This document shows, in pieces, positions 838 through 22,099 of a DNA stretch of 64,000 nucleotides. The DNA is from an uncultured Planctomycetia bacterium. Lineage in GTDB: Bacteria > Omnitrophota > Gorgyraeia > Duberdicusellales > Duberdicusellaceae. Made by a program: the position numbers and the translations under genes. The notes under the pieces are model-generated. The model did no database searches, was not told where the DNA came from, and saw only the letters and a list, made by a program, of their open reading frames with translations. The first letter of the stretch is position 1; each line of letters begins with the position of its first letter. Location: NCBI GenBank assembly GCA_964634935.1, contig CAZWJT010000002.1, positions 10,570 through 74,569 of the forward strand, read 5' to 3'.

Positions 838-911
838 GCGCCTGTAGCTCAAACGGATAGAGCATCTGCCTTCTAAGCAGGTGGTTGGCAGTTCGATTCT
901 GCCCAGGCGCG
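838..911 (+). tRNA. tRNA-Arg (anticodon UCU); CCA not encoded
   Basis: Acceptor GCGCCTG/CAGGCGC, D-loop AGCTCAAACGGATAGAGC, anticodon loop CTTCTAA, T-arm GGCAGTTCGATTCTGCC, discriminator G. Confidence 0.8.
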
Positions 912-9376: not shown

Positions 9377-9455
9377 GGTGGGTGTAGCTCAGTTTGGCTA
9401 GAGCACTTGACTGTGGCTCAAGATGTCGAGGGTTCAAATCCCTTCACCCACCCCA
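9377..9455 (+). tRNA. tRNA-His (anticodon GUG) with extra G-1 and encoded 3' CCA
   Basis: G(-1) precedes acceptor GTGGGTG/CACCCAC. Anticodon loop CTGTGGC. T-arm GAGGGTTCAAATCCCTT. Discriminator C followed by CCA in the DNA. Confidence 0.8.
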
Positions 9456-9462
9456 TATTTAA

Positions 9463-9518
9463 CCCTCATGCGAACCCGGACTCTTCGGAGCCACAAACGC
9501 ATGAGGGTTTTTCTTTTT
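9463..9518 (+). terminator. Hairpin plus T-run immediately after tRNA-His
   Basis: CCCTCATGCG ... CGCATGAGGG (10-bp stem, large loop) followed by TTTTTCTTTTT. Confidence 0.5.
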
Positions 9519-9553
9519 CTGGTGGGGAAGCGCTTGAGTTTGCTCCCCAAGAG

Positions 9554-10084
9554 ATGGTCGAGTTTATCAAATATCTGAAGAGCTATTCTTCGATATGGCC
9601 GAGAACTTACTTTTGTGAATTTCCTTTCTTTATCTCCATTACCAATTTTAAACGAAAAATATGCTTTGGAACACGGCCCGAAGACTTGGCCGATATGGGG
9701 ATTATTCATCAAAAAGCATGGGAAAGGCATCAGGCGCATTTAAATCGTCTGTCCCGATTTCCGCTTGATAAGGCAGAATATTATCAAAGGTTGAAGGAGA
9801 TGCATGCGGTGAATACCGTTCGTGGGCTTTCGACAATAACAGGGGAGGACTGGTCGTATATTGCTAAGATTCTTAGAGTTTTATTATTGCCGGAACCAAT
9901 TAAAGATTTTTTGAGGAATAATAAGAGCAATTCTGAGATTGTGAAGTTCTTCACTCTACGTCGTCTTCTTAATATTGTGCGGCAACGTGAGGAAAGGCTT
10001 CAATTAAGCTATTTCAGTGAGCTTATGGAAAAATATGGGATGGCGTTTATCGACTCTTGGACGCAGGATAACATCAAAAGATGA
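9554..10084 (+). CDS. Hypothetical protein (first gene of the island downstream of tRNA-His)
   Basis: ORF track 9407..10084 begins inside the tRNA. The first ATG downstream of the tRNA terminator is 9554 (MVEFIKYL...). No recognisable domain. Confidence 0.4.
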   Translation: MVEFIKYLKSYSSIWPRTYFCEFPFFISITNFKRKICFGTRPEDLADMGIIHQKAWERHQAHLNRLSRFPLDKAEYYQRLKEMHAVNTVRGLSTITGEDWSYIAKILRVLLLPEPIKDFLRNNKSNSEIVKFFTLRRLLNIVRQREERLQLSYFSELMEKYGMAFIDSWTQDNIKR

Positions 10085-10119
10085 ATCAAATCGCCGTGCC
10101 TAAATGTCCATTCCGTATG

Positions 10120-10147
10120 AATGTCCGCTCATTAGCGGACATTTTCT
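10120..10147 (+). terminator. Stem-loop after the hypothetical gene
   Basis: AATGTCCGCT-catt-AGCGGACATT followed by TT. The T-run is short, so this is a weak call. Confidence 0.3.
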
Positions 10148-10388
10148 AGCCAGCAGACATTTATAATAAAAGCGTAGGAACTGAAATTCCAATTAAGTTT
10201 ATTCACTTTTTCTGTATTCGGAAAAACAAGTAATATTTTGGGCTTCAAACGGCTCAAATTAGCCTGAAAAATAGTCTATTCCTGCAAAAATTGATTATTT
10301 TGCAGGCTTACGATAAAATGCCTTCGTTTTAGGTATTTGAGAATTTTTTTGATATTTTAGCCATAACATCGTGCAAGAAAAAAAAGAA

Positions 10389-10417
10389 TTGACAAATATT
10401 TGTTAAAATGGTATTAT
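10389..10417 (+). promoter_or_regulatory. Sigma70-like promoter TTGACA-N17-TATTAT for the ATPase/TOPRIM operon, overlapped by the near-palindrome TTGACAAATATTTGTTAA
   Basis: The -35 is 10389..10394 and the -10 is 10412..10417. The -35 lies inside an imperfect 9-9 inverted repeat, which could be an operator. Confidence 0.45.
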
Positions 10418-10462
10418 TACATTGTCAATAACGCTCAAAATAAGTATTTCAGGAGGGATAAA

Positions 10463-11689
10463 ATGATTCATTCATTTACGTTCAAAAATTTTTGTTCCTT
10501 TGCAAATAATGCCACAATATTGTTTCAGGATATTCGCAAAGGAGTAGAAACTAAGAGTAATATGTTTTGCGACACCTCGTTAGGCGACCGTGTAAGCAAA
10601 GTTATGATCGTGGTTGGGCCTAACGCGTCTGGTAAGACAAGCGCCCTTAAGGCGTTGGCTTTTCTTAGTTGGTTTGTGCGAAATTCCTTTGTTGGGCTGG
10701 AAGGGGAAAAGGAGCCAATCCCTGTCGATAATTTCGCTTTCTCAGAGGATAAAGAAAGCGTGTCGGAATTCGAATTGGTTTTTGATCACAAAGATGTTGT
10801 TTATAAATATATCCTGCATTTATGCAAAACCCATGTCATAAAGGAAGAGCTATACCGCAAAGAAGATACCCAGCATTTTAATTATATATTCAAGAGAAAT
10901 TGGAACGCACAGGCGGGGAGTTCTGAGATTGTTCAGCGCATAAATTTAAAGACAGAAATTCTTAAAGAAATCTTGCGCAAGAACGTGTCTTTAATTGCCG
11001 CGTCAGTCGCGATAAAGAACGATTTTCTTACAGATATTGCCGGGTTCTGGGAGAAGATCATTAGCAACGTTAATCGCATGGGAAAATCATGGGACACTTC
11101 TTCGCTTGGCGAACGCGGCTTATTTGAAGCCACAGAGGCCTATAATAAAAATCAAAATCTTTTTGTTAAAGTTGTTCAGTTTTTGAAAGACATTGATCTT
11201 GGTTTAGAGGGAGTGTTGATCGAAGAGGGAGAAGCTCGAAATCCTAAAACCGGAGAAGCGAAGAAAATTTATTTGCCATATGGCGTGCATAAGGTTAAGG
11301 ACAAGCAATATAAATTACCGTTAGCTTTTGAATCCAGCGGCACAAAAAATATGTTTGTGCTTTTGCATTTTCTTTTGCCAGCTATTGAGCAGGGCGGGCT
11401 TGCGGTAATAGACGAGCTTGAGATCGATTTGCATCCTCACGCCGTCCCGCAAATAATCGAGTTGTTCGCTAACCCAGCCACCAACCCTAAAAATAGCCAA
11501 CTCCTTTTTACTTCACATTCCCTGGAGGTTCTTAACCATCTTGAGAAGGAACAAATTGTTCTGGTTGAGAAAAAACAGGAGTGTAAAAGTGAGCTTTATC
11601 GGCTTGATGAATTGAAAGGAATACGTCGCGACGATAACATCTACGCAAAATATATGGCCGGTGCTTATGGCGCGGTTCCAAACATATAA
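10463..11689 (+). CDS. AAA_21/AAA_15 (ABC/OLD-type) ATPase, AbiLi/RloA/AriA-like
   Basis: Walker A VVGPNASGKTSALKAL. C-terminal ESSGTKNMFVLLHFL ... AVIDELEIDLHP ... LLFTSHSLEVL signatures. The ORF track starts at TTG 10400, but ATG 10463 has a strong RBS (AGGAGGG). Confidence 0.75.
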   Translation: MIHSFTFKNFCSFANNATILFQDIRKGVETKSNMFCDTSLGDRVSKVMIVVGPNASGKTSALKALAFLSWFVRNSFVGLEGEKEPIPVDNFAFSEDKESVSEFELVFDHKDVVYKYILHLCKTHVIKEELYRKEDTQHFNYIFKRNWNAQAGSSEIVQRINLKTEILKEILRKNVSLIAASVAIKNDFLTDIAGFWEKIISNVNRMGKSWDTSSLGERGLFEATEAYNKNQNLFVKVVQFLKDIDLGLEGVLIEEGEARNPKTGEAKKIYLPYGVHKVKDKQYKLPLAFESSGTKNMFVLLHFLLPAIEQGGLAVIDELEIDLHPHAVPQIIELFANPATNPKNSQLLFTSHSLEVLNHLEKEQIVLVEKKQECKSELYRLDELKGIRRDDNIYAKYMAGAYGAVPNI

Positions 11690-11705
11690 ATAAGGGAGCC
11701 GCGAT

Positions 11706-12248
11706 ATGACGCCAAGACGAATAAAGCCGACCAGAAACACAAAAACAACTGTTCTCATTGTAGGCGAAGGCCCTACCGAGAAAGCATTTTTGCAATATCT
11801 CAAGGAGTTATACGTCGCGTGTGATTATGCCTGTGCCGTAAAAGTAGAATGCGGTTCTGGCGGCTCACCTCGCTGTGTAGTGCAAAAAGCCATACGTTTA
11901 CGAGGTAGCAGGGCTTATGATAAGTGTTACGTGCTTTTTGACGCGGATAGGCCGCTTGAAACTGATTATAAATTATCTGATCGCATGAATAAGCGGCCTC
12001 GCGTTGAAGTTCTCAAGGCCACGCCATGCATAGAGGGGTTATTTTTGGCAATATTGAAACACCCCGGATTTTCTCAAGGAAGCGCCGCGTCACATGATTG
12101 CAAACGGGATTTCCATGCCGGTTACATATCCGAAGACAAAAAGATGGACAAACGGTCATATGGGGGGAAGTTTCCAAAAACGATACTGGATAGCCAAAGA
12201 GCGCAGGTTGCAGAGTTAGACCTTATTTTAAAGGCAATGCAGGTTTAG
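11706..12248 (+). CDS. RloB/DUF4276-like TOPRIM protein (AbiLii/OLD-nuclease-like partner)
   Basis: N-terminal basic tail then VLIVGEGPTEKAFLQYL (TOPRIM Glu) and VLFDADRP (DxD). Sits 16 bp after the ATPase gene; RBS AAGGGAG. Confidence 0.6.
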   Translation: MTPRRIKPTRNTKTTVLIVGEGPTEKAFLQYLKELYVACDYACAVKVECGSGGSPRCVVQKAIRLRGSRAYDKCYVLFDADRPLETDYKLSDRMNKRPRVEVLKATPCIEGLFLAILKHPGFSQGSAASHDCKRDFHAGYISEDKKMDKRSYGGKFPKTILDSQRAQVAELDLILKAMQV

Positions 12249-12316
12249 TGAATTTGCTTCAGGCGGTGTCGTCAGCAGGACGTTGTGGGTACCGGGAGCA
12301 ATAAACGGAGGATTTT

Positions 12317-12664
12317 ATGGGTGAAATAAAGGAACTTACAGAGAAAATAAAAGAATTCCGTGACGAGCGAGATTGGAAACAATTTCATAATCATAAGGAT
12401 ATGTCTCTCTCACTAATGCTTGAGGCAGCTGAAGTTTTAGAGCACTTTCAGTGGAAATCACAGAGCGAAGTCGAAAAACATGGAAATGCATGCAAAAATG
12501 AAATAGCTGAAGAGCTCGCTGATGTTGCTATGTACCTATTTGAGCTCGCAGATAATCTTGGTATTAATTTGTCCGATGCTATTGAGCATAAGCTGACAAA
12601 AAATGCTAAAAAGTACCCTGTAGAGAAAGCTAAAGGTAAACACACAAAATACGATAAATTATGA
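12317..12664 (+). CDS. MazG-like nucleoside triphosphate pyrophosphohydrolase (small all-alpha NTP-PPase)
   Basis: IKEFRDERDWKQFHNHKDMSLSLMLEAAEVLEHFQWK and EELADVAMYLFELA are typical of the MazG/dUTPase-like fold. RBS GGAGG. Its stop overlaps the next start (ATGA). Confidence 0.7.
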   Translation: MGEIKELTEKIKEFRDERDWKQFHNHKDMSLSLMLEAAEVLEHFQWKSQSEVEKHGNACKNEIAEELADVAMYLFELADNLGINLSDAIEHKLTKNAKKYPVEKAKGKHTKYDKL

Positions 12665-15075
12665 GGCTTTACTCGGGAACATCACAGCAATTCATTCAAG
12701 ATGCAATTCATAACCAAATCGCAGAGAAGTTAAAGAACGCATTTTTCGGATATTATCGTTACAATCCTTCCCCAGCGGAGATTAATTCTTGGCGCAACTC
12801 CCTTCGTTCGATTAGCCAAGTATTTCAGCATGCGGATCTGATGGATCATGGAGTTCTTCTTGAATACCAATTACCTTTAACTTCTCGCCGACTAGATTGC
12901 ATGATCTGTGGCCGTGATCAACAAAAAGCAGATAATGCTGTTATTGTGGAATTAAAACAATGGGATAGATGTGAAGAGGCGTATGGCGATAACGAAGTGC
13001 TCACATGGGTTGGAGGCGCAAAGCGAGAAGTATTACATCCTTCAGTCCAGGTTGGGCAATATCATCTTTACCTAGAAGATACGCACACAGCATTTAATGT
13101 TGATGATGACCCTGTTACCCTGAACGCTTGTACTTATTTACATAATTACAACTATTATTCCGACGACGTTATTTTTTCAGATAAATTCCAACTTCCTCTT
13201 AAACGGTATCCTCTATTTACTGCAGATGATGTTGAAAAGCTAACAGATTATTTGAGGGATAGACTTTTAACCGGAGACGGCCTAGATGTTTTACAAAGGA
13301 TCGAAGAAAGTAAATATCGTCCAAATAAAAAGCTCATGGATCACGTAGGTAACATAATAAAAAACAAAACAGAGTATATTCTGCTAGATGAGCAACTTAT
13401 CGTTTATGATGCTGTCTTGGGATGCGCAAAAAGAAGCTTCCATGATAAGCAAAAGTCTGTAATTGTTGTTAAAGGTGGCCCAGGCACTGGCAAGTCTGTT
13501 ATAGCAATTAACTTAATGGCTGACTTGCTATTGAAAGGTTACAACTCTCATTATGCCACTGGTTCAAAGGCTTTCACAGAGACATTGCGGAAGATCATCG
13601 GAACTCGCGGATCCGTACAGTTTAAATATTTTAACAGTTATGGTCAAGCAGAAGAGAATGCTGTAGATATTCTCATCGCGGATGAGGCCCATCGTATACG
13701 AGAGACAAGCAATAGTCGATTTACACCTCGCGCGAGCCGCTCCGAAATGACACAAATTGAAGAATTGCTTCGGGCGTCTAAGGTCGCGGTATTTTTTATT
13801 GATGATGACCAAGTAGTGCGTCCTAATGAAATAGGCTCTGTTGATTATATTAAGAGAATCGCAGACGATCGCAAAATCAAACTCCATGAATATGAATTAG
13901 AAGCTCAATTTCGTTGTAATGGATCTGATGCGTTTGTAAGTTGGATCAACAATACCTTAGGGATTAAAAGAACCGCCCATGTAATCTGGGATCAACATGA
14001 AGAATTTGATTTTAAGATATTTTCTAGTCCAATTGAACTTGAAAATGCCATACGTAATAATGTTGCACGAGGCTTTACTGGAAGAGTAACAGCTGGTTTT
14101 TGCTGGGATTGGTCGCTCCCGAATGAAGATGGTACGTTGAAAAATGATGTAATCATAGGAGATTATAAACGACCATGGGATGCAAAGCCGGAGGCTAAAC
14201 GCTTAGCTCCAGGTATTCCGAAAGCTTCCCTGTGGGCATATGATCCTAATGGTATTAATCAAGTTGGATGTGTGTATACTGCACAGGGTTTCGAGTTTGA
14301 TTATGTCGGAGTTATTTTTGGTGAAGATTTAGTATATGACTTTGATAAGCAAGAGTGGATCGGCAATTCGGCTAATTCCTCTGATAGCGTAGTTAAGCGG
14401 TCTAAGAACAAATTTGTGGATTTGGTAAAAAATACTTATAGAGTTTTATTAAGCCGAGGAATGAAGGGTTGTTACGTCTATTTTATGAATAAAGATACCG
14501 AGAGGTTTTTTAAATCACGAATTGAAGGTGATAATACACAAATAGATGAATCTTTAACCGTTTCTAGGCTTCTAGGTAGCGAGGTAGATTTTCTTGAACG
14601 TATTCTCCAAGACGTTGATAGCTCTTTGAAATACAAAGAATATTTACCAGTTTATACTTTGGCTGCGGCAGCCGGTGCATTCGGCGAAGGCATGGATGTT
14701 AAAGAAAAGGGTTGGATTAAGGTTAACATCGGTAAGGCTTTGAATAAAAAATTATTCGTTGCGAAAGTAATCGGTAAGTCTATGGAACCGTTAATTCCTG
14801 ATGGGAGCTATTGTGTGTTTAGTGCGAACGTTGTTGGCACGCGAGCGAATAAGATTGTTTTAGTTCAACACAGCAGCATTTCTGATCTTGATAGTGGCGG
14901 AAAATATACGGTGAAGAAATATACGAGTAAGAAAAAATACTCGTCAGATGACACTTGGGAACATGACGAAATAACTTTGTTGCCGCTAAATCCTGACTAC
15001 GCTCCCATCATAATACCGAATACCAATGAGGGCGAGTTTATGGTGATCGCAGAATTTATATCAGTATTAAAATAA
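12661..15075 (+). CDS. DUF2075-type nuclease/helicase: N-terminal PD-(D/E)xK motif, P-loop NTPase, C-terminal LexA/UmuD-type S24 autopeptidase domain
   Basis: RLDCMICG...AVIVELKQW matches D..ExK. Walker A VVKGGPGTGKSV and Walker B ILIADEAHRI. DUF2075 tail CVYTAQGFEFDYVGVIFGEDL. The C terminus has AAAAG (Ala671-Gly672) then 35 aa later VIGKSMEPLIPDGSYCVF (Ser707), TVKKY (Lys), LLPLNPDYAPIIIP, matching the S24 layout. Confidence 0.75.
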   Translation: MRLYSGTSQQFIQDAIHNQIAEKLKNAFFGYYRYNPSPAEINSWRNSLRSISQVFQHADLMDHGVLLEYQLPLTSRRLDCMICGRDQQKADNAVIVELKQWDRCEEAYGDNEVLTWVGGAKREVLHPSVQVGQYHLYLEDTHTAFNVDDDPVTLNACTYLHNYNYYSDDVIFSDKFQLPLKRYPLFTADDVEKLTDYLRDRLLTGDGLDVLQRIEESKYRPNKKLMDHVGNIIKNKTEYILLDEQLIVYDAVLGCAKRSFHDKQKSVIVVKGGPGTGKSVIAINLMADLLLKGYNSHYATGSKAFTETLRKIIGTRGSVQFKYFNSYGQAEENAVDILIADEAHRIRETSNSRFTPRASRSEMTQIEELLRASKVAVFFIDDDQVVRPNEIGSVDYIKRIADDRKIKLHEYELEAQFRCNGSDAFVSWINNTLGIKRTAHVIWDQHEEFDFKIFSSPIELENAIRNNVARGFTGRVTAGFCWDWSLPNEDGTLKNDVIIGDYKRPWDAKPEAKRLAPGIPKASLWAYDPNGINQVGCVYTAQGFEFDYVGVIFGEDLVYDFDKQEWIGNSANSSDSVVKRSKNKFVDLVKNTYRVLLSRGMKGCYVYFMNKDTERFFKSRIEGDNTQIDESLTVSRLLGSEVDFLERILQDVDSSLKYKEYLPVYTLAAAAGAFGEGMDVKEKGWIKVNIGKALNKKLFVAKVIGKSMEPLIPDGSYCVFSANVVGTRANKIVLVQHSSISDLDSGGKYTVKKYTSKKKYSSDDTWEHDEITLLPLNPDYAPIIIPNTNEGEFMVIAEFISVLK

Positions 15076-15085
15076 TAGGTTAGGC

Positions 15086-15790
15086 ATGATATTAAAACCC
15101 GGTGAAATAGTTTCTTATTTAACAATGTGCCAGCACGAAGGGGTAAACCTTCAGCGGGGCATGAATTTCCGGTTAAAGGGCGGGCTAAGTGTCATTTTAA
15201 TGAGCTTAAGAAAGAATGCCCCGTATGCTGATAGAGTCGAGGATGATGGTGGCGTTCTGATCTATGAAGGCCACGATGTTCCGAAATATCAGGGGTTAAA
15301 GCAAAATCCAAAACAAATTGATCAGCCAGGGCTTACTCCCTCAGGGGCATTAACCGAAAATGGCAAGTTTTTCAAAGCGGCCGAAGGATATAAGAAAAAT
15401 AATGGCATTCCAGAGCTCGTTAAAGTTTATGAGAAGATACGTAACGGCATTTGGACGTATTCTGGGATTTTTGAATTGATTGATGCATGGCAGGAAGCTG
15501 CTGGGAAGCGAAAGGTATTTAAATTCAAACTAAAAATTACCGATCGGTCAGAGGCCGATCGCGACCCTGCAAATAAGGACGACTTGGATCATACGCGCGT
15601 AATACCCACAGATGTTAAATTGGCGGTATGGGAGCGCGATAAAGGACGATGTGTTGTATGCAATTCGGCAAACAACTTGCACTTTGATCACATTATCCCA
15701 TTCTCAAAGGGCGGTACATCTTTAAAAGCAGAAAATATTCAATTGATGTGTGCAAGGCATAATCTAAATAAACGAGATAAATTAATTTAG
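15086..15790 (+). CDS. SRA(YDG)-like domain fused to an HNH endonuclease: putative type IV modification-dependent restriction enzyme
   Basis: C-terminal HNH: CVVCNSANNLHFDHIIPFSKGG...NIQLMCARHN. The N-terminal GGLSVILMS...YADRVEDDGGVLIYEGHD resembles the SRA motif S-V-L-SGG...Y-DD-D-G...YTG-GG. 10 bp after the DUF2075 gene. Confidence 0.55.
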   Translation: MILKPGEIVSYLTMCQHEGVNLQRGMNFRLKGGLSVILMSLRKNAPYADRVEDDGGVLIYEGHDVPKYQGLKQNPKQIDQPGLTPSGALTENGKFFKAAEGYKKNNGIPELVKVYEKIRNGIWTYSGIFELIDAWQEAAGKRKVFKFKLKITDRSEADRDPANKDDLDHTRVIPTDVKLAVWERDKGRCVVCNSANNLHFDHIIPFSKGGTSLKAENIQLMCARHNLNKRDKLI

Positions 15791-15970
15791 ATTCGATAAA
15801 CTTTTGATAAGGAAACGAATTAAATGGCATTGGTTTGTTGATCATTGGGTTTTGTTAGCTCAAAATTCGGGGAGCTTCACATTTTTTTGCTCCTGTGGCT
15901 CTAGACTGCGCGGTTTCTAATACCGCGAGGCCACCCCAGCTTAAAAATTTCTGCCAAATTTTTAAGCGTC

Positions 15971-16148
15971 CCAAAGCCATCCCGGGAAATATCCACAGGA
16001 AATTTCCCGGGTATTCAAACGGCGAGGGGCAGGATTACATATCGCTACTTCCAATGTCTTCCTGAGCATATCAATCAGATCTTCTGAATATCAAATGGCA
16101 GAGGGTTTTGTCTGGTAAAGGAAAACCTTTTATAATATAATGTTTTAT
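15971..16148. repeat. 178-bp direct repeat, copy 1 (identical to 18686..18863); contains a palindrome and a consensus promoter
   Basis: Base-by-base comparison of the two copies shows identity over 178 bp. Internal inverted repeat CCCGGGAAAT-N11-ATTTCCCGGG at 15981..16011. Confidence 0.9.
16108..16136 (+). promoter_or_regulatory. Sigma70 promoter TTGTCT-N17-TATAAT at the 3' end of repeat copy 1
   Basis: -35 16108..16113, 17-nt spacer, -10 TATAAT 16131..16136. Points toward the gene starting at 16323. Confidence 0.6.
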
Positions 16149-16322
16149 GCCCTTTTTGTAAATAAGAATGGCCTTGCCCGAGTGCTGGATTGTGCCGTCT
16201 ACCGAGATCAAAGGGCTTCTGTACAAGAACCCAAAGGGCAACCGATCGGTGATTGACTGTTATGGCGAGAAAGGCATGCTAAAAAGAGGGCTTCGCTTTA
16301 AGGATAACTGGGAGCTTCTGAA

Positions 16323-16820
16323 ATGACAGAATTGCTTCAAGCACAAGTTCGATCTATCGGCGAGCATTACGTTGTTGCTCGGCTTACGACGCTGGGGTTT
16401 ATCGTGGGCTTGGCGCCTGAGAATACAAGAGCTGTTGATATTATTGCGATGAGCGAGGATGGCAAAAGAAACCTCCAGATTCAGGTTAAAACGCGAACGG
16501 AAGGCCGTTCTGCCGATAAAGGCTGGATGATGAGTGAGAAACACGAATCCTTAGTGAATGACAATTTATATTATATTTTCGTTACTTTACCGGAGCAATG
16601 GACTGACCGCGATCAACCGTCCACTTTTATTATTCCATCAAAGAAAGTGGCCGCTATTGTTAAGCAATCGCATAAAGACTGGACATCCAGCCCCGGGCGT
16701 AAAGGTCAAAAGCGTAACGATACCAAAATGAGACGAATCAAGCCGATCTATTCAGATTCTCCATCAATTCCTGCTGACTGGATGGATGAATACCGGGATA
16801 ATTGGGAGATTTTGAAATGA
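16323..16820 (+). CDS. Small hypothetical protein with a PD-(D/E)xK-like motif arrangement
   Basis: GEHYVVARL ... VDIIAM ... LQIQVK resembles the E / D / (E/Q)xK restriction-endonuclease-fold core. No other match. Confidence 0.4.
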   Translation: MTELLQAQVRSIGEHYVVARLTTLGFIVGLAPENTRAVDIIAMSEDGKRNLQIQVKTRTEGRSADKGWMMSEKHESLVNDNLYYIFVTLPEQWTDRDQPSTFIIPSKKVAAIVKQSHKDWTSSPGRKGQKRNDTKMRRIKPIYSDSPSIPADWMDEYRDNWEILK

Positions 16821-17470
16821 CTTTAGATCGATATGTCGCATGGGCCTTGGCTAATATTAACATAACCCTTCCCGTTTCCCGCAGAGTTGAGGAAGATTGG
16901 TTATATAATTGGTCGAGGACGTTGGATGCGATTAACAGCGTGACTGGGATATTTGAGGTTACGTCGTTGATATTCTCACGGTCTGAGTTTCTTGGCGGTT
17001 TATATCTTGGAAAAACGGCGGATACAACAGCTGACGATTTTAAACTGTTCTGGGATAAGTTCTTCCCGGAGGAGTATAAGGATTTTCATAATATGAGCGG
17101 CCAAGGTAAAGGTTCAGACATCTTCAATGTATTCAGAAATAATATCCTTCACTCAGGGACAGCAACGGCGATTAAATCTGGTGCCGATGATATTATTGGC
17201 TGGTTGATGGGATACGGGGTAAATCCCGATGGCAAGGGCATATCTTTTAAGGATCGGGCGTTTCATATTGACTGCCAGAATCTAACTACCGAGTTCAAAG
17301 AGGCGCTGAAGAAATATATTTCTTACTTGAAAGATGATACGGATGATTTAAACGGACAGGGCATTCCAAGCGTACGCTGGAGAAAAGGATTTTGGTATAC
17401 CTTAAAGCCTGTTTATATGGATTCTGCTTCATGGGGCGCTTTAGGTCGAGATAATAAGATTTATTCTTAA
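16817..17470 (+). CDS. Hypothetical protein, translationally coupled (ATGA) to the upstream gene
   Basis: ATG 16817 overlaps stop 16818..16820. No recognisable motif. Confidence 0.4.
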   Translation: MTLDRYVAWALANINITLPVSRRVEEDWLYNWSRTLDAINSVTGIFEVTSLIFSRSEFLGGLYLGKTADTTADDFKLFWDKFFPEEYKDFHNMSGQGKGSDIFNVFRNNILHSGTATAIKSGADDIIGWLMGYGVNPDGKGISFKDRAFHIDCQNLTTEFKEALKKYISYLKDDTDDLNGQGIPSVRWRKGFWYTLKPVYMDSASWGALGRDNKIYS

Positions 17471-17485
17471 TGCGAGAGGTTAATT

Positions 17486-18436
17486 ATGGCGAAAATTATA
17501 TGCTTCACTGCAATATTATTGCTGAATACTATTTTAGCAAGCGCGCAGGATACCCCTTTGGAAAAACAACTGACATTGATATACAAGAATGCGGAAGATG
17601 CAACCACCAAAGGCGATATCGAGCAGTCAGATTTTTGGTTGGCCAGATACATGGGTTTAACAGCCACAGATGAAAACACAAACCGTGGCTACCCCGATTT
17701 AATCCCATTGTTTAAAAAACGAGAGGATTTAAAACCCACAGCATTTATCTCTGGAAAGTACGATGATAGTTTTATCGAATTCTACGCTCGCGGAACATGT
17801 GGCATGTGGGGCGCGCCCGATGAAGGTATTGATAGAGAAAAGCGAGAATTTATAATTCAGTCCTATTCAGATGGTCGCTATTTTGTCGAGATAACAGCTT
17901 CGCCTCGGCTTGAGAATTGGTCTATTTTAAAAGAGCCCGCAGTTGTAGCCGTTATCCCTCTCGGGAAAAACCCCATTATCCATTCAGGTAAACTTGATAA
18001 AAATGCGGTTGCTAAACGCTTCAAGAATATGCCCTTTGATATCGGAGAAAGTTTTATCCACTACGTCTGGCAACCGGAAATGCACGATTTAGATGGGGAT
18101 GGCATACCTGAAGTATGGATCCGCTATATTAAGGCTTGGGCCGATGGTTTTTCTCAGGAATTGGCTATATATAAAATTAAAGATGACAGTGATCTTGTCC
18201 TATTAAAGCAGTTCTCCGGTGAAGCCGAAGGCATTGCCAGACGCCTTGACGGGAATGGGGTCGAGATAGGCACCGGCTTTACTAATAAGAATGTTGGGCA
18301 TCTAGGTTTTGATCAGACACGCCTTGAAATATGGGCATACAGAGATGGCAAATTCATAAAGACTTCCGAAAGGAATGTTCCCCATATTCTCTGGAGTAAT
18401 GCATGGGAGAAGTATTATTTTAATAGTCAAAAATGA
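17486..18436 (+). CDS. Secreted hypothetical protein (signal peptide)
   Basis: MAKIICFTAILLLNTILASAQD signal peptide. RBS GAGAGG. Confidence 0.5.
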   Translation: MAKIICFTAILLLNTILASAQDTPLEKQLTLIYKNAEDATTKGDIEQSDFWLARYMGLTATDENTNRGYPDLIPLFKKREDLKPTAFISGKYDDSFIEFYARGTCGMWGAPDEGIDREKREFIIQSYSDGRYFVEITASPRLENWSILKEPAVVAVIPLGKNPIIHSGKLDKNAVAKRFKNMPFDIGESFIHYVWQPEMHDLDGDGIPEVWIRYIKAWADGFSQELAIYKIKDDSDLVLLKQFSGEAEGIARRLDGNGVEIGTGFTNKNVGHLGFDQTRLEIWAYRDGKFIKTSERNVPHILWSNAWEKYYFNSQK

Positions 18437-18463
18437 TGTTTTGCGGGACAATGGATTAGTTAG

Positions 18464-18506
18464 CAGGCTACAAGGCAGTTTCTAACCTGCTTAAGCCATC
18501 GACCCC
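18464..18506. repeat. 45-bp motif copy A (CAGGCTACAAGGCAGTTTCTAA core)
   Basis: A 22-nt perfect match plus a similar 20-nt extension relative to 20515..20557. Starts 28 bp after the stop of the secreted-protein gene. Confidence 0.7.
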
Positions 18507-18685
18507 AATGAAACTTACTTCTTTCTGTCTCGACAAAGCAGAAAGAAGTTTAGTTGAATTGTCCCCGAACAGCTTTCGGAAAATGTCAAAGAGATTTTCC
18601 GAATATGAGAGATGTTCGGGGTACAACACTGCATGCGGTGCAAAAAGCAGCGCAGGCCATCAGAAAAGGCCAAGGTTTAGTTACT

Positions 18686-18863
18686 CCAAAGCCATCCCGG
18701 GAAATATCCACAGGAAATTTCCCGGGTATTCAAACGGCGAGGGGCAGGATTACATATCGCTACTTCCAATGTCTTCCTGAGCATATCAATCAGATCTTCT
18801 GAATATCAAATGGCAGAGGGTTTTGTCTGGTAAAGGAAAACCTTTTATAATATAATGTTTTAT
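18686..18863. repeat. 178-bp direct repeat, copy 2
   Basis: Identical to 15971..16148. ORF-track ORFs 18508..18780 and 18554..18802 lie in it and are considered spurious. Confidence 0.9.
18823..18851 (+). promoter_or_regulatory. Sigma70 promoter TTGTCT-N17-TATAAT (repeat copy 2) driving gltA
   Basis: -10 18846..18851. gltA ATG 18935 with RBS AGAGAGGTGG. Confidence 0.6.
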
Positions 18864-18934
18864 AATCGTGTATTAAGAGATTGTACCTGTTGCTAAAATA
18901 AACCAGTATATGATGTCTGAAAGAGAGGTGGCAA

Positions 18935-20230
18935 ATGAATATTCCGGAATCAGGTAAGCCGCTCGATACGGCCGCAATAACAATTGGTGATAAGATCGTT
19001 TCCTGTCCTATTATCACAGGCGTTGAGAATGAGAAAGCCTTGGATATTTCTGGGCTTCGCAATAAAACAGGTTACGTGACGTATGACGAGGGATATGTCA
19101 ATACCGCCTCTTGCTTAAGCAGCATTACCTACATAGACGGGGAGAATGGAATATTGCGATACAGGGGGATTCCCGTGGAAGAACTTGCCGCAAAACGAAG
19201 CTTTATTGAAGTCGCTCATTTGCTTATTTTCGGGCACTTGCCGTCGGTTACAGAGAAAAGTACCTTTTCTAAACTTCTTACCAGTAACTGCATGATTCAT
19301 GACAATATGGTCAAGCTTTTTGATAACTTGCCCGGTTCAAGCCATCCCATGGCTACTTTGTCGGCAATGGTGGTGACGCTTTCTGCGTATTATCCTGAGT
19401 TGGTAAAGCCCGAGATGAACGCAGGGGAGATGAATAAAATTATTGCCGAACTTCTTGCCAAGATCAGGACCCTTGCGGCGTATTCATACAAAAAATCCAT
19501 CGGTGAACCTATCATTTACCCGAAACGCGAGTATAAATATGTCGAAAACTTTCTTCATATGATGTTTTCCACTCCTGTAGATGAATACCCCTTAGATCAA
19601 GAAGTGGTAGATGCCCTGGAAAAGATTCTTATCCTCCACGCTGATCATGAGCAGAATTGCAGTACTTCAACCGTGCGGTTGGTGGGAAGTTCTAAAGCCA
19701 ATCTTTTTGCGTCTATCTCTGCGGGTATTTGTGCCCTCTGGGGACCTTTACATGGCGGTGCGAATCAAGCCGTTATTGAGATGCTTGAGGCGATCGTTAG
19801 GGATAAGATAGATGTGAGGCATGTTATCGAGAAAGCAAAGGACAAAAATAATCCTTTCTTGCTTATGGGTTTTGGCCATCGAATTTATAAGAATTTTGAT
19901 CCCCGGGCGAGGATTATTAAGGAAATATGCGATAAAGTGCTCACGAAACTGGGTATCAATGATCCTTGTCTTGAGATTGCTAAAAAGATCGAGGAAGTAG
20001 CCCTGAAAGACGATTTCTTCATTCAACGCAAACTTTATCCTAACGTTGATTTTTACAGCGGCATAATTCTTCGCGCGATCGGTATCCCGACGAATATGTT
20101 TACCGTTATTTTTGCTATGGGGCGGCTTCCTGGATGGATCGCACATTGGAAGGAACAATGTGAGTCTCCCAATCAAAAGATTGGGCGACCCCGTCAAGTC
20201 TATATCGGAGCGCCACTGACGCATATATAA
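18935..20230 (+). CDS. gltA: Citrate synthase
   Basis: Canonical LILHADHEQNCSTSTVRLVGSS, GPLHGGANQAV, MGFGHRIYKNFDPRA motifs. Confidence 0.9.
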   Translation: MNIPESGKPLDTAAITIGDKIVSCPIITGVENEKALDISGLRNKTGYVTYDEGYVNTASCLSSITYIDGENGILRYRGIPVEELAAKRSFIEVAHLLIFGHLPSVTEKSTFSKLLTSNCMIHDNMVKLFDNLPGSSHPMATLSAMVVTLSAYYPELVKPEMNAGEMNKIIAELLAKIRTLAAYSYKKSIGEPIIYPKREYKYVENFLHMMFSTPVDEYPLDQEVVDALEKILILHADHEQNCSTSTVRLVGSSKANLFASISAGICALWGPLHGGANQAVIEMLEAIVRDKIDVRHVIEKAKDKNNPFLLMGFGHRIYKNFDPRARIIKEICDKVLTKLGINDPCLEIAKKIEEVALKDDFFIQRKLYPNVDFYSGIILRAIGIPTNMFTVIFAMGRLPGWIAHWKEQCESPNQKIGRPRQVYIGAPLTHI

Positions 20231-20514
20231 CGCTACCGGTTTTCAGGTCGGATATCGTGGGTGATTTGCTGTAGCGGTTATTCCTCTTATAAAAATCCCG
20301 GTTCTTCATGCAAGCAAGCTTCATAGCGACAAGGCCGTTCAACATTTCAAGAATTTTGATCAGATCCATCTTGAAATATTGAGAATATAGAAATGGGCAA
20401 TTTGTGAAAACTTCAGGACGGGATACCTCCTCATATTTTGTGGAAAGAATCTTGGGGGGGGTATTAGTTGGCAGCGCTGAAGGGTGTTCTATGAGATTAT
20501 AGGTGTTACGCCAA

Positions 20515-20557
20515 CAGGCTACAAGGCAGTTTCTAATCCGCTGAATCCGGCGATTCC
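20515..20557. repeat. 45-bp motif copy B (CAGGCTACAAGGCAGTTTCTAA core), with a partial upstream copy at 20463..20483
   Basis: See copy A. Located 284 bp after the gltA stop. Confidence 0.7.
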
Positions 20558-20649
20558 ACAGTTTGACTGCGTACGACCCTTGAATTTTGCATGATAATGT
20601 TTCTGACTGATGTTTTTATTGACTTTAAGAATATTTTTGCTATTATAAT

Positions 20650-20664
20650 TAGAAATAATTTCTA
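20650..20664. promoter_or_regulatory. 7-1-7 palindrome TAGAAATaATTTCTA: putative Fur-family (Zur) operator
   Basis: Perfect 7-1-7 inverted repeat ending 6 nt before the ATG of the Fur-family regulator gene. Fur, Zur and PerR boxes are 7-1-7 repeats. Confidence 0.45.
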
Positions 20665-20670
20665 TTTAGA

Positions 20671-21090
20671 ATGAGCACGCTAGAAGATTATTTAGGCAAA
20701 TTGAAACAGGGCGGGTTTAAACTCACGCCGCGCAGGCAGGCAATTATTGAGCTTTTTGTTGACGGCAAGAGCCACTTGACACCGGAAGATGTGTGGGAAA
20801 AACTCAAGAAGCAGTTCGACCATTGCGGGCTTCCCAGCGTGTACCGTAATCTGGAGAGCCTTGTCGAATGCGGGATATTAACAAGAATTCAGCAATTTGA
20901 CCGCAAGAAGCATTACGGATTGTGTTCATCCGTCCACAGCGACCACCACCATCATATTACCTGCGTGAAATGCGGAAGAGTTGAGGGAATACATGGTTGC
21001 ACAATCGGCAACGCGAAAAAAATTAAAGGATATAAAATTATCAGCCATTTTATGCAGGTGAATGGGGTATGTTCTGGATGTGCCCGATGA
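20671..21090 (+). CDS. zur: Fur-family metalloregulator, probably Zur
   Basis: Winged-helix N terminus (TPRRQAIIELF), His-rich HSDHHHHITC and C-terminal CxxC. Directly upstream of znuACB. Confidence 0.7.
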   Translation: MSTLEDYLGKLKQGGFKLTPRRQAIIELFVDGKSHLTPEDVWEKLKKQFDHCGLPSVYRNLESLVECGILTRIQQFDRKKHYGLCSSVHSDHHHHITCVKCGRVEGIHGCTIGNAKKIKGYKIISHFMQVNGVCSGCAR

Positions 21091-21142
21091 TCGATTTTTG
21101 AGCGTTTTCCGGTGTTTGTATGACCGAAAACGAAGATAGCTT

Positions 21143-22099
21143 ATGAAGGTTGGTTTTATGAGAAATTCCATCGTTCTTCTTTTTATTCTTTTATTGAGCA
21201 TGCCATCCGGGATAAGCCAACAGGCTGCTGAGAAATTGGAGGTTATGACTACGCTTTTTCCTTTCTATGATTTTGTCCGGCAGATCGGCAAAGAAAAAGT
21301 TACCGTACGACTGCTGGTACCGCCTGGCGTTGAACCCCATGCGTTTGAATTGAAGCCACGAGATATCATTCAGATTAACAAATCAGATATTTTTATCTAT
21401 ACGGGAAAATATATGGAGCCGTGGGTTCAGGACATGCTTGCCGGCATCAGACATACGAATCTTTTAGTTATTGACGCAAGTCAGGGAATTGAGCTTTTAT
21501 CGGGAGAACACTCGCATTCCGAATTGCACCATTCCCAAAAAGAGGATGCTTCTCTGGAAAAAGATCCTCACATCTGGCTGGATCTCGGGCATGACCAAAG
21601 CATAGTTGATGCTATTACCCAGGCTCTCATCGAACGTGATCCGGCGAACAAGGAGTTTTATCTTCAAAATGCCAAGGCATATAAACTCAAGCTTGCTGAT
21701 CTCGACAGCCGCTTCAAGAAAAGTTTTGCCGGGGTCCAGCAGAGGACGATTCTTCATGCTGGACATTTCGCATTTGGCTACTTTGCGAAGCGATACGGCT
21801 TAGAGTACGTTTCTCCATACGCTGGTTTTTCTCCAAATGCCGAGCCAAGCCCAAAGGCGATAGCAGAGTTGATTCAGAAGTCAAAGCAACTGAAAGCACA
21901 GCGTATTTATTATGAGGAGCTTTTAGATCCTAAAGTTGCACGAACAATTGCCCGGGAAACAGGGGTGAAGTTGGAGTTGCTCCACGGGGCGCACAATGTC
22001 AGCAAGAATGAGCTTGCAAGAGGGATCACATTTCTGGAAATCATGGAAGACAATCTTAAGAAATTACAAAAAGGGTTTGGTTCTCATGAACATCATTGA
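21143..22099 (+). CDS. znuA: Zinc ABC transporter substrate-binding protein (ZnuA/TroA family) with His-rich loop
   Basis: Signal peptide, His/Glu-rich loop HSHSELHHSQKED, TroA-like fold motifs. The alternative start ATG 21158 has the better RBS. Confidence 0.75.
   Translation: MKVGFMRNSIVLLFILLLSMPSGISQQAAEKLEVMTTLFPFYDFVRQIGKEKVTVRLLVPPGVEPHAFELKPRDIIQINKSDIFIYTGKYMEPWVQDMLAGIRHTNLLVIDASQGIELLSGEHSHSELHHSQKEDASLEKDPHIWLDLGHDQSIVDAITQALIERDPANKEFYLQNAKAYKLKLADLDSRFKKSFAGVQQRTILHAGHFAFGYFAKRYGLEYVSPYAGFSPNAEPSPKAIAELIQKSKQLKAQRIYYEELLDPKVARTIARETGVKLELLHGAHNVSKNELARGITFLEIMEDNLKKLQKGFGSHEHH

What the first reader, a model, noticed from the sequence alone, without database searches (positions are those of the whole stretch)
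15893..20557. Family of about 45-bp motifs (core CAGGCTACAAGGCAGTTTCTAA) at the 3' side of each cassette, giving a promoter-genes-motif cassette architecture
18464..18506 and 20515..20557 share a perfect 22-nt core plus a similar 20-nt tail (..CYGCTKAAKCCRKCGAYYCC). Each sits downstream of the last gene of a unit, namely the secreted-protein gene and gltA. A more degenerate relative, GGCTCTAGACTGCGCGGTTTCTAATACCGCGAGGCCACC, lies at about 15893..15935, downstream of the HNH gene. All contain a short hairpin with a TTTCTAAY loop (GCAG-tttctaac-CTGC, CGCGG-tttctaata-CCGCG). B also has a partial extra copy at 20463..20483. Together with the 178-bp promoter repeats, the layout is [motif]-[R178 promoter]-genes-[motif]-[R178 promoter]-gltA-[motif]. 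This resembles recombination-site-bounded cassettes (integron attC-like logic) or a repeated 3' RNA element.
Basis: seen in the sequence. Interest (0 to 1): 0.5.

Follow-up and report, generated by a model that had tools for sequence, protein, structure and literature searches.

The report
Conserved tail hairpin of Omnitrophota defence operons
The repeated ~50-base motif is real and marks the end of accessory (mostly anti-phage) gene units in Omnitrophota bacteria, but here it is repeated because two decayed copies of one restriction-modification operon lie side by side, not because of integron-style cassettes.

Summary
The A/B repeat (18459-18507, 20510-20558) and the 178-nt repeat are real and non-random. 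The layout has an ordinary local origin.

- Unit 1 is a type III restriction-modification operon with its own promoter. It lost Mod/Res through an 8-bp microhomology deletion.
- Motif B is attached to a frameshifted pseudogene of a second copy of the same 316-aa tail gene. gltA sits between promoter copy 2 and that relic.
- Copy D (15893-15938) is at best a frameshifted relic. A covariance model trained elsewhere does not detect it.

The motif is nevertheless a genuine family. At least 10 further copies occur in other Omnitrophota/"Planctomycetia" contigs. All lie just after the stop codon of a gene, on that gene's strand, sometimes 2-3 in series. All end in ...GACCCCA, after which the sequence differs.

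Each copy is an imperfect hairpin. Unexpectedly, its variation is codon-structured on the opposite strand (WGRWLKxVRNCL...stop), yet no start codon and no parent protein was found.

It is not a canonical attC, REP, tRNA/tmRNA fragment or Rfam family. Most likely it is a unit-terminal hairpin module at which units are joined. The mechanism is unresolved.

The parts
15893..15938 (+). Copy D: a decayed, frameshifted relative of the motif, after the SRA-HNH gene. Stems GTGGC..CGCGG, loop TTTCTAATA, then CCGCG..GCCAC, ending in CCCA.
   Evidence: Folds with z -2.6. Not detected by nhmmer or the CM. With a 4-nt deletion the antisense frame reads ..GWPRGIRNRAV*. Its last 8 nt equal the 3' end of tRNA-His.
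15971..16148 (+). R178 copy 1: native promoter region of the type III R-M operon. The -35 box is at 16108-16113, the -10 box at 16131-16136, and an upstream palindrome at 15981-16011.
   Evidence: (D1, I2). Its 3' part is homologous to the region upstream of Mod in L026 and L033.
16170..16177 (+). Deletion junction. The 8-bp microhomology GGCCTTGC joins the operon 5' UTR to the inside of the 140-aa gene, with Mod, Res and the 5' part of that gene lost.
   Evidence: by comparison with L033 1-45, L033 5174 onward and L004 10622 onward. Supported by blastn.
16168..18436 (+). Remaining tail genes of the R-M operon: 52-aa stump of the 140-aa gene (16168-16326), 165-aa gene (16323-16820), 222-aa gene (16802-17470) and 316-aa secreted protein (17486-18436).
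   Evidence: The 316-aa gene is the last gene of type III R-M or helicase+methylase operons in L004, L026, L031, L033 and L034.
18459..18507 (+). Motif copy A (GTTAGCAGGCTACAAGGCAGTTTCTAACCTGCTTAAGCCATCGACCCCA), the tail module of unit 1. Antisense frame WGRWLKQVRNCLVAC*.
   Evidence: CM R2 E=7e-15. 98% identical to L004 although the adjacent gene is only 79% identical.
18508..18685 (+). 178-nt spacer with three hairpins. No homolog in any fetched locus except the near-identical contig L032.
18686..18863 (+). R178 copy 2: a duplicate of the R-M promoter, now in front of gltA. Identity ends about 12 nt after the -10 box.
18935..20230 (+). gltA (citrate synthase). Homology with relatives starts only 39 nt upstream of the start codon (18896).
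20271..20509 (+). Pseudogene of a second, older copy of the 316-aa gene, plus its stop-to-motif spacer. Residues about 154-181 and about 266-310 survive, in three frames, with an internal stop and an internal deletion.
20510..20558 (+). Motif copy B: tail module of the older operon relic. The first 22 core nt are identical to A, the 3' half is diverged and the hairpin is lost.
   Evidence: CM R2 E=0.0045. Fold z -0.6. Antisense frame WNRRIQRIRNCLVAC with the stop lost.

Best explanation
The motif is the conserved tail module of a family of accessory (mostly anti-phage) gene units in Omnitrophota. It is an imperfect palindrome of about 50 nt, about 90 nt in the longer L026b-type form. It lies 0-100 nt after the last stop codon, always on the gene strand, and ends in ...GACCCCA.

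WHY IT IS REPEATED IN THIS WINDOW (descent, not cassette capture)
- Unit 1 is a type III R-M operon with its native promoter R178, its tail genes and module A. It lost Mod and Res by a microhomology deletion.
- Unit 2 keeps a duplicate of the same promoter. At its far end it keeps a pseudogenised older copy of the 316-aa tail gene with module B. gltA lies in between.
- D is a decayed module at the end of the preceding defence unit.

HOW THE MODULE WORKS (inferred)
- It is co-transcribed with the upstream unit and folds into a long bulged hairpin that closes the unit, acting as a 3'-end or terminator-like structure.
- Because it is nearly identical between otherwise unrelated units, it is the place where units become joined head to tail. 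Joining could occur by recombination between module copies or by an unidentified sequence-specific enzyme acting at its outer edge.

SHOWN VERSUS INFERRED
- Shown: family membership, position, strand, hairpin potential, the sharp outer edge, and the relic-operon history of the window.
- Inferred: transcription, the terminator or stabiliser role, and the joining mechanism.
- Not explained by this model: the antisense codon-structured conservation.
For: THE MOTIF IS REAL AND RECURS
- It is non-random in the window.
- Homologous copies with unrelated flanks occur in L002/L008, L007, L004 and L033.
- Diverged copies occur in L035 (x3), L031 (x2), L027, L026, L036, L038 and L039.
- The exact 14-mer AGCCAKCGACCCCA is present in 10 relevant loci, always on the gene strand, and in none of the 25 other loci held at the time.
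- All good GGT...ACCCCA hairpins lie on the gene strand just after a stop codon.

HAIRPIN
- Fold z-scores reach -4.3, and the inner stems differ in sequence between copies.
- A CM trained without any window copy finds A at 7e-15 and B at 0.0045.

CONSERVATION AND EDGE
- The module is 98% identical between the window and L004, while the adjacent gene is 79% and, by my manual count on the sequences, the spacer about 59%.
- Sequence after CCCCA is unrelated in most contexts.

LOCAL HISTORY
- The 8-bp microhomology junction is shown.
- The R178 3' part is homologous to the region upstream of Mod in L026 and L033.
- The pseudogene upstream of B is shown.
- The 316-aa gene is the terminal gene of R-M-type operons.
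Against: - There is no canonical U-tract directly after the stem. The terminator scan finds nothing at A, B or D.
- L035b is only 25 nt from the next start codon, so it cannot be a strong terminator there.
- The module follows none of the other gene ends in the 64-kb window, so it is not a general terminator.
- Near-invariance of almost every nucleotide, and conservation of the 3' arm and loop sequence, exceed what a purely structural hairpin needs.
- Variation is codon-like on the opposite strand, which this model does not predict.
- Window copy A folds weakly and B has lost the hairpin.
- MFE shows no strand asymmetry.
- L026b and L039 share about 21 nt beyond CCCCA, so the outer edge is not absolute.
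Confidence: 0.4

Rival explanations
1. The module is a site-specific recombination or accretion site. Each incoming unit carries one copy at its far end and is inserted exactly at the outer edge (...CCCCA|) of a resident copy, giving head-to-tail arrays. In logic this resembles integron attC, or SCCmec/orfX and e14/icd-type integration, in which the element brings a surrogate gene end. The surrogate gene end would explain the antisense protein-level conservation that starts exactly at the edge.
For: - The outer edge is sharp, with unrelated downstream sequence in most contexts.
- Same-orientation arrays occur: three copies in L035, two in L031, and three in the window counting D.
- Modules that are 92-98% identical follow unrelated genes, for example the L008 methylase versus the 316-aa gene.
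- Codon-structured conservation begins at the edge codon W. This is the pattern seen for duplicated gene 3' ends at phage 21/e14-icd (my own knowledge).
- Recombinases lie in some islands: a tyrosine integrase in L008 and large serine recombinases in L004 and L007.
Against: - No recombinase is consistently adjacent, and no homolog of the L008 integrase or L004 serine recombinase is in the window.
- No intact target gene reads into any of about 15 copies.
- No long protein with this C-terminus exists among 5.8e9 clusters or 1.84e9 representatives scanned exhaustively.
- There is no empty-site versus filled-site pair.
- The attC consensus boxes are absent.
- The unit's left border in the window is a random microhomology deletion.
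- L026 and L027 carry the same 316-aa gene without the module.
Confidence: 0.22
2. The module is, or recently was, the 3' end of a tiny gene on the opposite strand, convergent and tail-to-tail with the upstream gene. It would encode a Trp/Arg-rich peptide: WGRWLKxVRNCLVAC*, with a longer form ...LMISQPTPFNPMYYQGA*. The hairpin would then be a terminator embedded in its coding end.
For: - The antisense frame is open in every copy, while the other two antisense frames carry 8-11 stops and most sense frames also carry stops.
- Arg is encoded by AGA, CGA and CGC. Leu is encoded by CTT, CTA, CTC, CTG and TTA.
- Variable columns by codon position are 10/5/11, and the column-permutation test gives P<0.0002.
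- L031a has diverged DNA but still reads DRKLQRVKTCFVVC*.
- Gene callers predicted seven small ORFs ending in this peptide.
- The stop codons of the two strands are 0-20 nt apart.
Against: - There is no conserved start codon, ribosome-binding site or N-terminal sequence.
- The upstream open frame varies from 0 to 128 codons with unrelated sequence.
- Window copy A has no in-frame start. L031b has only 5 open codons.
- There is no Pfam or NCBIfam match.
- A promoter would have to exist by chance in unrelated right flanks.
Confidence: 0.18
3. The module is a REP- or MITE-like selfish palindromic element that inserts by itself into 3' untranslated regions and is mobilised in trans, for example by a RAYT-like HUH transposase.
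For: - It is a discrete 49-nt unit with exact ends in unrelated contexts (L008 versus A, L004, L033).
- It is an imperfect palindrome with conserved terminal nucleotides and an extragenic 3' location.
- Several contigs break at or near it (L033, L038, L007).
Against: - Copy number is low: three clustered copies in 64 kb, none elsewhere in the window, and one exact 20-mer hit among GTDB species representatives.
- Co-orientation with the upstream gene is strict.
- There is no GTAG box.
- No empty site and no target duplication were seen.
- No RAYT was found, although this was not systematically searched.
Confidence: 0.1

Closest known systems
Integron attC sites / clusters of attC sites lacking an integrase (CALIN)
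   Same: - A hairpin-forming site of about 50-90 nt lies at the 3' end of each gene unit and is co-oriented with the genes.
- Arrays occur, with a conserved base of the stem and a variable middle.
- The units are accessory genes.
   Different: - There are no R''/R' boxes (RYYYAAC/GTTRRRY) and no conserved TTRRRY at the start of the next unit.
- No IntI was found.
- Units are multi-gene operons with their own promoters.
- The conserved sequence is the 3' arm plus the loop.
- There is an antisense coding signature.
REP/BIME extragenic palindromes (with RAYT transposases)
   Same: An imperfect palindrome with bulges, located extragenically just after genes, nearly identical copies in unrelated contexts, and a conserved terminal oligonucleotide.
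   Different: Low copy number, confinement to variable or defence regions, strict orientation, no GTAG, no RAYT seen, and codon-like variation.
Duplicated gene 3' ends at integration sites (phage 21/e14 in icd; SCCmec direct repeats in rlmH/orfX)
   Same: Same-orientation repeats at element borders are conserved at the protein level with synonymous differences, all truncated at the same codon. Tandem accretion gives arrays.
   Different: The target gene body is never present next to any copy, and no protein with this C-terminus exists in the databases searched.
Intrinsic terminators / 3'-UTR stabilising hairpins
   Same: A stem-loop lies directly after the last ORF on the sense strand. T-rich sequence follows in about half of the copies (40% T versus 29% background).
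   Different: There is no adjacent U-tract, a CCCA spacer intervenes, and the sequence rather than only the structure is conserved. The element is absent from most operon ends in the same genome, and one copy lies 25 nt before the next start codon.

Membership tests
Integron attC | R'' (RYYYAAC) at the 5' end and R' (GTTRRRY) at the 3' end, pairing at the base of the hairpin, with the crossover at G|TT so that the next cassette starts with TTRRRY. | tested here: not met
   By reading the sequences, the base of the stem is GGT...ACC followed by CCA. The bases after the edge are not conserved. The nearest GTTRRRY (18553) is not complementary to the TTCTAAC box.
Integron attC | An integron integrase (IntI) nearby, or at least two attC sites within 4 kb for a CALIN. 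| tested here: inconclusive
   tblastn with the L008 tyrosine integrase and the L004 serine recombinase found no homolog in the window. Pfam was run on about 20 window ORFs only. Two to three motif copies lie within 4.7 kb, but they are explained by relic operons. The IntegronFinder attC model is not available here.
Integron attC | Cassettes are usually single, promoterless ORFs bounded on both sides by recombination points. | tested here: not met
   Unit 1 has its own promoter and four genes. Its left border is an 8-bp microhomology deletion inside a gene.
REP / REPIN | Tens to hundreds of copies per genome in extragenic space, a conserved GTAG tetranucleotide, and an associated RAYT gene. 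| tested here: not met
   There are three clustered copies in 64 kb and none elsewhere. One exact hit was found among GTDB representatives. There is no GTAG. RAYT was not searched genome-wide because the genome is not available.
Intrinsic (Rho-independent) terminator | A G+C-rich stem-loop immediately followed by a U-tract. | tested here: not met
   The scan of 15000-21500 reports no terminator at A, B or D. The stem is followed by CCCA. T-runs start 1-8 nt later, and only in some copies.
tRNA/tmRNA 3'-end repeat (island att site) | The repeat equals the 3' part of the tRNA or tmRNA gene at the island's other end (T-arm, acceptor strand, discriminator, CCA). | tested here: not met
   ARAGORN finds no tRNA or tmRNA at any copy. 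The tRNA-His 3' 20-mer is unique in the window. Only the last 6-8 nt (ACCCCA / CCACCCCA) coincide. The tRNA-Gln in L007 is unrelated.
Any Rfam RNA family | A score at or near the family's gathering threshold. | tested here: not met
   Only tRNAs reach gathering score. Nothing relevant appears at E<=10 in 15800-20700 or around the L036 copy.
Gene-3'-end integration site (e14/icd, SCCmec/orfX type) | One copy of the repeat is the true end of an intact target gene that reads into it. | tested here: not met
   No long ORF reads into any copy. Database searches return only short ORFs with unrelated N-termini.

The most novel reading that the evidence does not exclude
The module is a previously undescribed dual-coded unit-end element of Omnitrophota mobile defence units. 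One reading is a new hairpin-type recombination or accretion site, integron-like in logic but with an unrelated sequence and enzyme. The other is a convergent mini-gene for a 15-29-aa Trp/Arg-rich peptide, overlapping the operon's terminal hairpin, that regulates or polices the adjacent defence operon.
Probability: 0.25. Interest if true: 0.7.

Novelty: new variant of a known kind. Interest (0 to 1): 0.45.

Why it matters
Omnitrophota are uncultured, and little is known about how their defence islands are built. A short conserved module that closes defence operons and sits at their joints would have two uses. It would be a practical marker for delimiting accessory units in metagenome-assembled genomes. 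It would also be a lead to the machinery that shuffles them.

The combination of a hairpin constraint with protein-like conservation on the opposite strand, without any parent gene, is unusual. If it reflects a real peptide or a new recombination system, it would be a new piece of mobile-element biology.

For this window specifically, the result is sobering. The apparent cassette architecture is the wreck of two R-M operons.

Tried and rejected
- **Integron attC.** The consensus boxes are absent and no IntI was found.
- **tRNA or tmRNA 3'-half att repeat.** Lengths and T-arm do not fit, ARAGORN is negative, and only ACCCCA is shared with tRNA-His.
- **Diversity-generating retroelement (template/variable repeat pair).** By my reading of alignment A1, A and B differ at all bases and by indels, and the ORFs scanned near the region include no reverse transcriptase.
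- **Terminal inverted repeat of a Tn3, IS3 or Tn7-like transposon.** The antisense strand starts TGGGGTCG, but no inverted partner exists on either strand in the window or the loci.
- **Group II intron end, IS200/IS605 or IS91 ends, oriT.** These were considered from memory only. No HUH, reverse-transcriptase or relaxase gene lies next to any copy.
- **SSV-type split integrase.** The serine recombinases of L004 and L007 have complete C-termini and inconsistent orientation.
- **Invertible C-terminal segment (shufflon).** There is no inverted copy of the repeat.
- **G-U asymmetry as evidence for an RNA hairpin on the sense strand.** None was found.
- **Model R1.** It was built with a structure shifted by one column and should be ignored.
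- **Covariation on the MAFFT alignment.** Uninformative, because diverged copies are out of structural register.
- **Collection and library searches that found nothing useful.** Viral contig scans, plasmid and phage tblastn with the peptide, Pfam and NCBIfam with the peptide, and a literature search for Omnitrophota integrons or attC.
- **Exact look-up of the window's gltA product.** It was not on record.

Full report
**1. The observation**

The 22-mer CAGGCTACAAGGCAGTTTCTAA occurs twice in the window, at 18464 and 20515 on the + strand, with none expected by chance. The repeat extends to 44 nt at 82% identity. A separate 178-nt repeat (15971-16148 and 18686-18863) is 100% identical.

Comparison with copies from other genomes defines the unit as 49 nt, GTTAG...GACCCCA. 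This gives 18459-18507 (A) and 20510-20558 (B).

A covariance model built only from copies in other genomes finds A (E=7e-15) and B (E=0.0045). It finds nothing else in the 64 kb, including the proposed third copy D at 15893-15938.

D shares three things with the family: the TTTCTAA loop, an outer stem, and the terminal CCCCA. Allowing a 4-nt deletion, it also shares the antisense peptide pattern. However, hairpins with a TCTAA loop are no more frequent in the window than in shuffles. I therefore treat D as a plausible decayed relative only.

The 'partial extra copy' at 20463-20483 is the end of a pseudogene, not a motif copy.

**2. Context**

The region follows tRNA-His (9378-9455) and is a defence island. 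It contains:
- a ParB-HTH ORF;
- an AbiL pair;
- a MazG-like gene plus a Schlafen-type helicase/S24 gene;
- an SRA-HNH gene.

Downstream of B lies a Fur-family gene, probably zur by its position, followed by ZnuA and two zinc-uptake ABC components.

tblastn with the L008 tyrosine integrase and the L004 serine recombinase found no homolog in the window. Rfam finds only the three tRNAs.

**3. Why the window looks like 'promoter-genes-motif' cassettes**

The 316-aa secreted protein (17486-18436) belongs to an Omnitrophota family; its closest named relative is from Ca. Omnitrophus magneticus at 85% identity. In other contigs it is the last gene of defence operons:
- type III R-M operons (Mod-Res-small genes-316) in L004, L026, L033 and L034;
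- an SNF2/PLD helicase plus Eco57I-type methylase operon in L031.

*Unit 1.* The window segment 16170-18507 is homologous to the tail of such an operon, at 93%/79% to L004 and 80% to L033. The 3' part of R178, together with the next 19-29 nt, is homologous to the region just upstream of Mod in L026 and L033. It carries the -35/-10 boxes.

The junction at 16170-16177 is an 8-bp microhomology, GGCCTTGC. This sequence is present both in the 5' UTR and inside the 140-aa gene of intact operons. Mod, Res and two-thirds of the 140-aa gene were therefore deleted in one step. Unit 1 is a relic R-M operon with its own promoter and its own tail.

*Unit 2.* Between gltA and B, positions 20271-20464 encode pieces of a second 316-aa protein, residues about 154-181 and about 266-310. 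They lie in three frames, with a stop codon and an internal deletion. B is the tail module of that older relic.

gltA shares only 39 nt of upstream sequence with its closest relatives. Their gltA neighbourhoods differ from the window's.

*Conclusion.* The two units share a promoter and a tail because both descend from the same operon family. The 100% identity of R178, against about 67-70% identity at the 3' ends, points to a recent duplication or conversion of the promoter segment; this is inference. A Logan contig from another sample reproduces 16119-18715 at 99.8%.

**4. The motif is nevertheless a real, wider family**

*A-type copies.* Exact-word scans of genome and metagenome collections returned true copies in L002/L008, L007 and L004. 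The remaining hits were chance matches. L033 came from the neighbourhood of a homolog of the 316-aa gene.

In L008 and L007 the module follows an Eco57I-type methylase directly, and its first bases contain the stop codon. An NYN gene and a tyrosine integrase lie downstream.

*Diverged copies.* nhmmer and the covariance model then found diverged copies:
- after a 799-aa gene in L035 (copy L035b);
- after an AAA_14 ATPase in L027 (L027b);
- after a 148-aa gene in L026 (L026b);
- near the end of locus L031 (L031b).

Other copies came from other routes:
- A tail-only copy follows the 316-aa gene in L035.
- A copy after a Fic gene in L039 came from the protein search.
- A more distant GGTT...GACCCCA subfamily occurs after DUF5674 and a 109-aa gene in L035, downstream of gltA in L036, and at the start of contig L038 just upstream of gltA.

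*Strand and edge.* The 14-mer AGCCAKCGACCCCA is in 10 relevant loci, always on the gene strand, and in none of the 25 other loci held at that time. Every good GGT...ACCCCA hairpin is on the gene strand just after a stop codon.

Sequence after CCCCA is unrelated in most contexts. One close pair, L026b and L039, shares about 21 further nt.

*Patchiness and conservation.* Not every 316-aa gene carries the module. L026 and L027 lack it, while L031 and L034 have diverged versions. Where it is present it is better conserved than the neighbouring coding DNA. Between the window and L004 the module is 98% identical, against 79% for the gene and about 59% for the spacer by my manual count.

**5. Structure**

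The whole unit is one long bulged hairpin. In L007 it reads GGTT-A-GC-A-GGCTA-CA-AGGCAG [TTTCTAAC] CTGCCT-TAGCC-A-GC-GACC, followed by CCA.

Fold z-scores range from -4.3 to -0.6. The window copies are the weak ones: A -1.6 and B -0.6.

The inner stems differ in sequence between copies but stay palindromic: GGCAG/CTGCC, CGCGG/CCGCG, AGCC/GGCT, AAGCAG/TTGCTT and others.

The reverse strand folds equally well. The MAFFT alignment gives no usable covariation statistics.

There is no U-tract directly after the stem, although the next 15 nt are T-enriched at 40% against 29% background.

**6. The unexpected part**

Read on the opposite strand, starting exactly at the outer edge (TGG GGT is the reverse complement of ACCCCA), every copy is an open frame.

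| Copy | Antisense frame |
|---|---|
| A, L004 | WGRWLKQVRNCLVAC* |
| L035b | WGRWLKQVRTCLIAEPATFITF* |
| L031b | WGRWLKKVRTCLINV* |
| L027b | WGRWLSRVRLALISEPAPYNPLFYQTTS* |
| L026b | WGRWLKDIRNLMISQPTPFNPMYYQGA* |
| L031a (strongly diverged DNA) | DRKLQRVKTCFVVC* |

The variation is codon-like:
- Arg is encoded by AGA, CGA and CGC.
- Leu is encoded by CTT, CTA, CTC, CTG and TTA.
- V/I and L/M exchanges occur.
- Variable columns by codon position are 10/5/11.
- Amino-acid similarity far exceeds column-permuted controls (P<0.0002).
- This frame has no stops, against 8-11 in the other two antisense frames.

Yet three things are missing:
- Nothing is conserved N-terminal of the W, and there is no conserved start codon.
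- The word-indexed search of 5.8e9 protein clusters returns only short ORFs with unrelated N-termini that end in this peptide.
- The exhaustive HMMER scan of 1.84e9 representatives returns the same kind of short ORFs, plus unrelated WGRWIDG repeat proteins.

Pfam, NCBIfam, plasmid and phage searches are all negative.

**7. Interpretation**

Terminator, attC, REP, tRNA-derived att site and gene-3'-end att site each fail at least one defining test (see the membership table).

I commit, at about 0.4, to the reading that best fits the position, strand, hairpin and portability. The element is a unit-terminal hairpin module that is co-transcribed with the operon and is the preferred joint between units. 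I note explicitly that this does not explain the antisense coding signature.

The rivals are:
- a true site-specific accretion site that carries a surrogate gene end (0.22), weakened by the complete absence of a target gene and of a linked enzyme;
- a convergent mini-gene (0.18), weakened by the lack of any start;
- a REP/MITE-like element (0.1), weakened by low copy number and strict orientation.

**8. Verdict**

The integron-like interpretation is only partly supported. The motif does mark unit ends across genomes, but the architecture in this window is the product of two decayed R-M operons, and the element is not an attC.

The family itself is a lineage-specific, apparently undescribed element with an odd dual constraint. 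It is moderately interesting (0.45), and more so if the recombination-site or mini-gene reading proves true.

Noticed in passing
window 9378-15790: A defence island lies directly after tRNA-His. It holds a ParB-HTH ORF (9407-10084), an AbiL pair (AbiLi 10400-11689, AbiLii 11706-12248), a MazG-like gene (12317-12664) overlapping a Schlafen-type helicase with a C-terminal S24 peptidase (12661-15075), and an SRA-HNH nuclease (15086-15790). No integrase was detected.
   Followed up: partly
window 15981-16011 and 18696-18726: Inside each R178 copy there is a palindrome, CCCGGGAAAT-11 nt-ATTTCCCGGG, about 100 nt upstream of the -35 box. It could be an operator of the R-M operon. The same repeat also carries a leftward promoter-like site (16094->16065, 18809->18780).
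   Followed up: no
window 16170-16177: An 8-bp microhomology (GGCCTTGC) marks the deletion that removed Mod, Res and most of the 140-aa gene from the type III R-M operon. It is a clean example of microhomology-mediated loss of a restriction system with retention of its tail genes.
   Followed up: yes
window 16802-17470: The 222-aa gene is present here and in L032 and L033, but absent at the same place in L004, where there is a 54-nt gap instead. It is an indel of one gene inside an otherwise collinear operon tail.
   Followed up: partly
window 9448-9455 versus 15931-15938: tRNA-His ends ...CACCCAC-C-CCA. Its last 8 nt (CCACCCCA) equal the last 8 nt of copy D, and all strong motif copies end in (G)AC-C-CCA, like an acceptor end with discriminator C73 plus CCA. 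This could be chance, or a hint of a tRNA-like minihelix.
   Followed up: partly
window 868-882: The anticodon arm of tRNA-Arg(TCT), CTGCCTTCTAAGCAG, has the same TTCTAA loop as the motif hairpin and a stem that mirrors it (CTGC/GCAG versus GCAG/CTGC). This is probably coincidence.
   Followed up: no
window 18508-18685: The 178-nt spacer between motif A and R178 copy 2 contains three hairpins, for example CTTCTTTCTG-11 nt-CAGAAAGAAG followed by TTTAGTT, which is terminator-like. It has no homolog in any fetched locus except L032.
   Followed up: no
L007 versus L008 (L007 32-311 and 6793-7156; L008 6594-6872 and 13691-14054): The two contigs share flanks at 88-98% identity around a helicase+methylase defence system whose proteins are only about 30% identical. 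This looks like allelic replacement of a whole defence system between conserved flanks, with the right flank including the motif.
   Followed up: partly
L036 11430-11513: In a relative, the distant subfamily copy downstream of gltA is preceded at about 15 nt by a strong promoter-like sequence, TTGTTT-17 nt-TATAAT. That copy might be transcribed on its own.
   Followed up: no
L026 10486-12721 and L039 1258-1386: IS3-family (HTH_Tnp_1/rve) and DDE_Tnp_1 transposase genes or fragments lie within a few hundred nt of the L026b-type motif copies.
   Followed up: no
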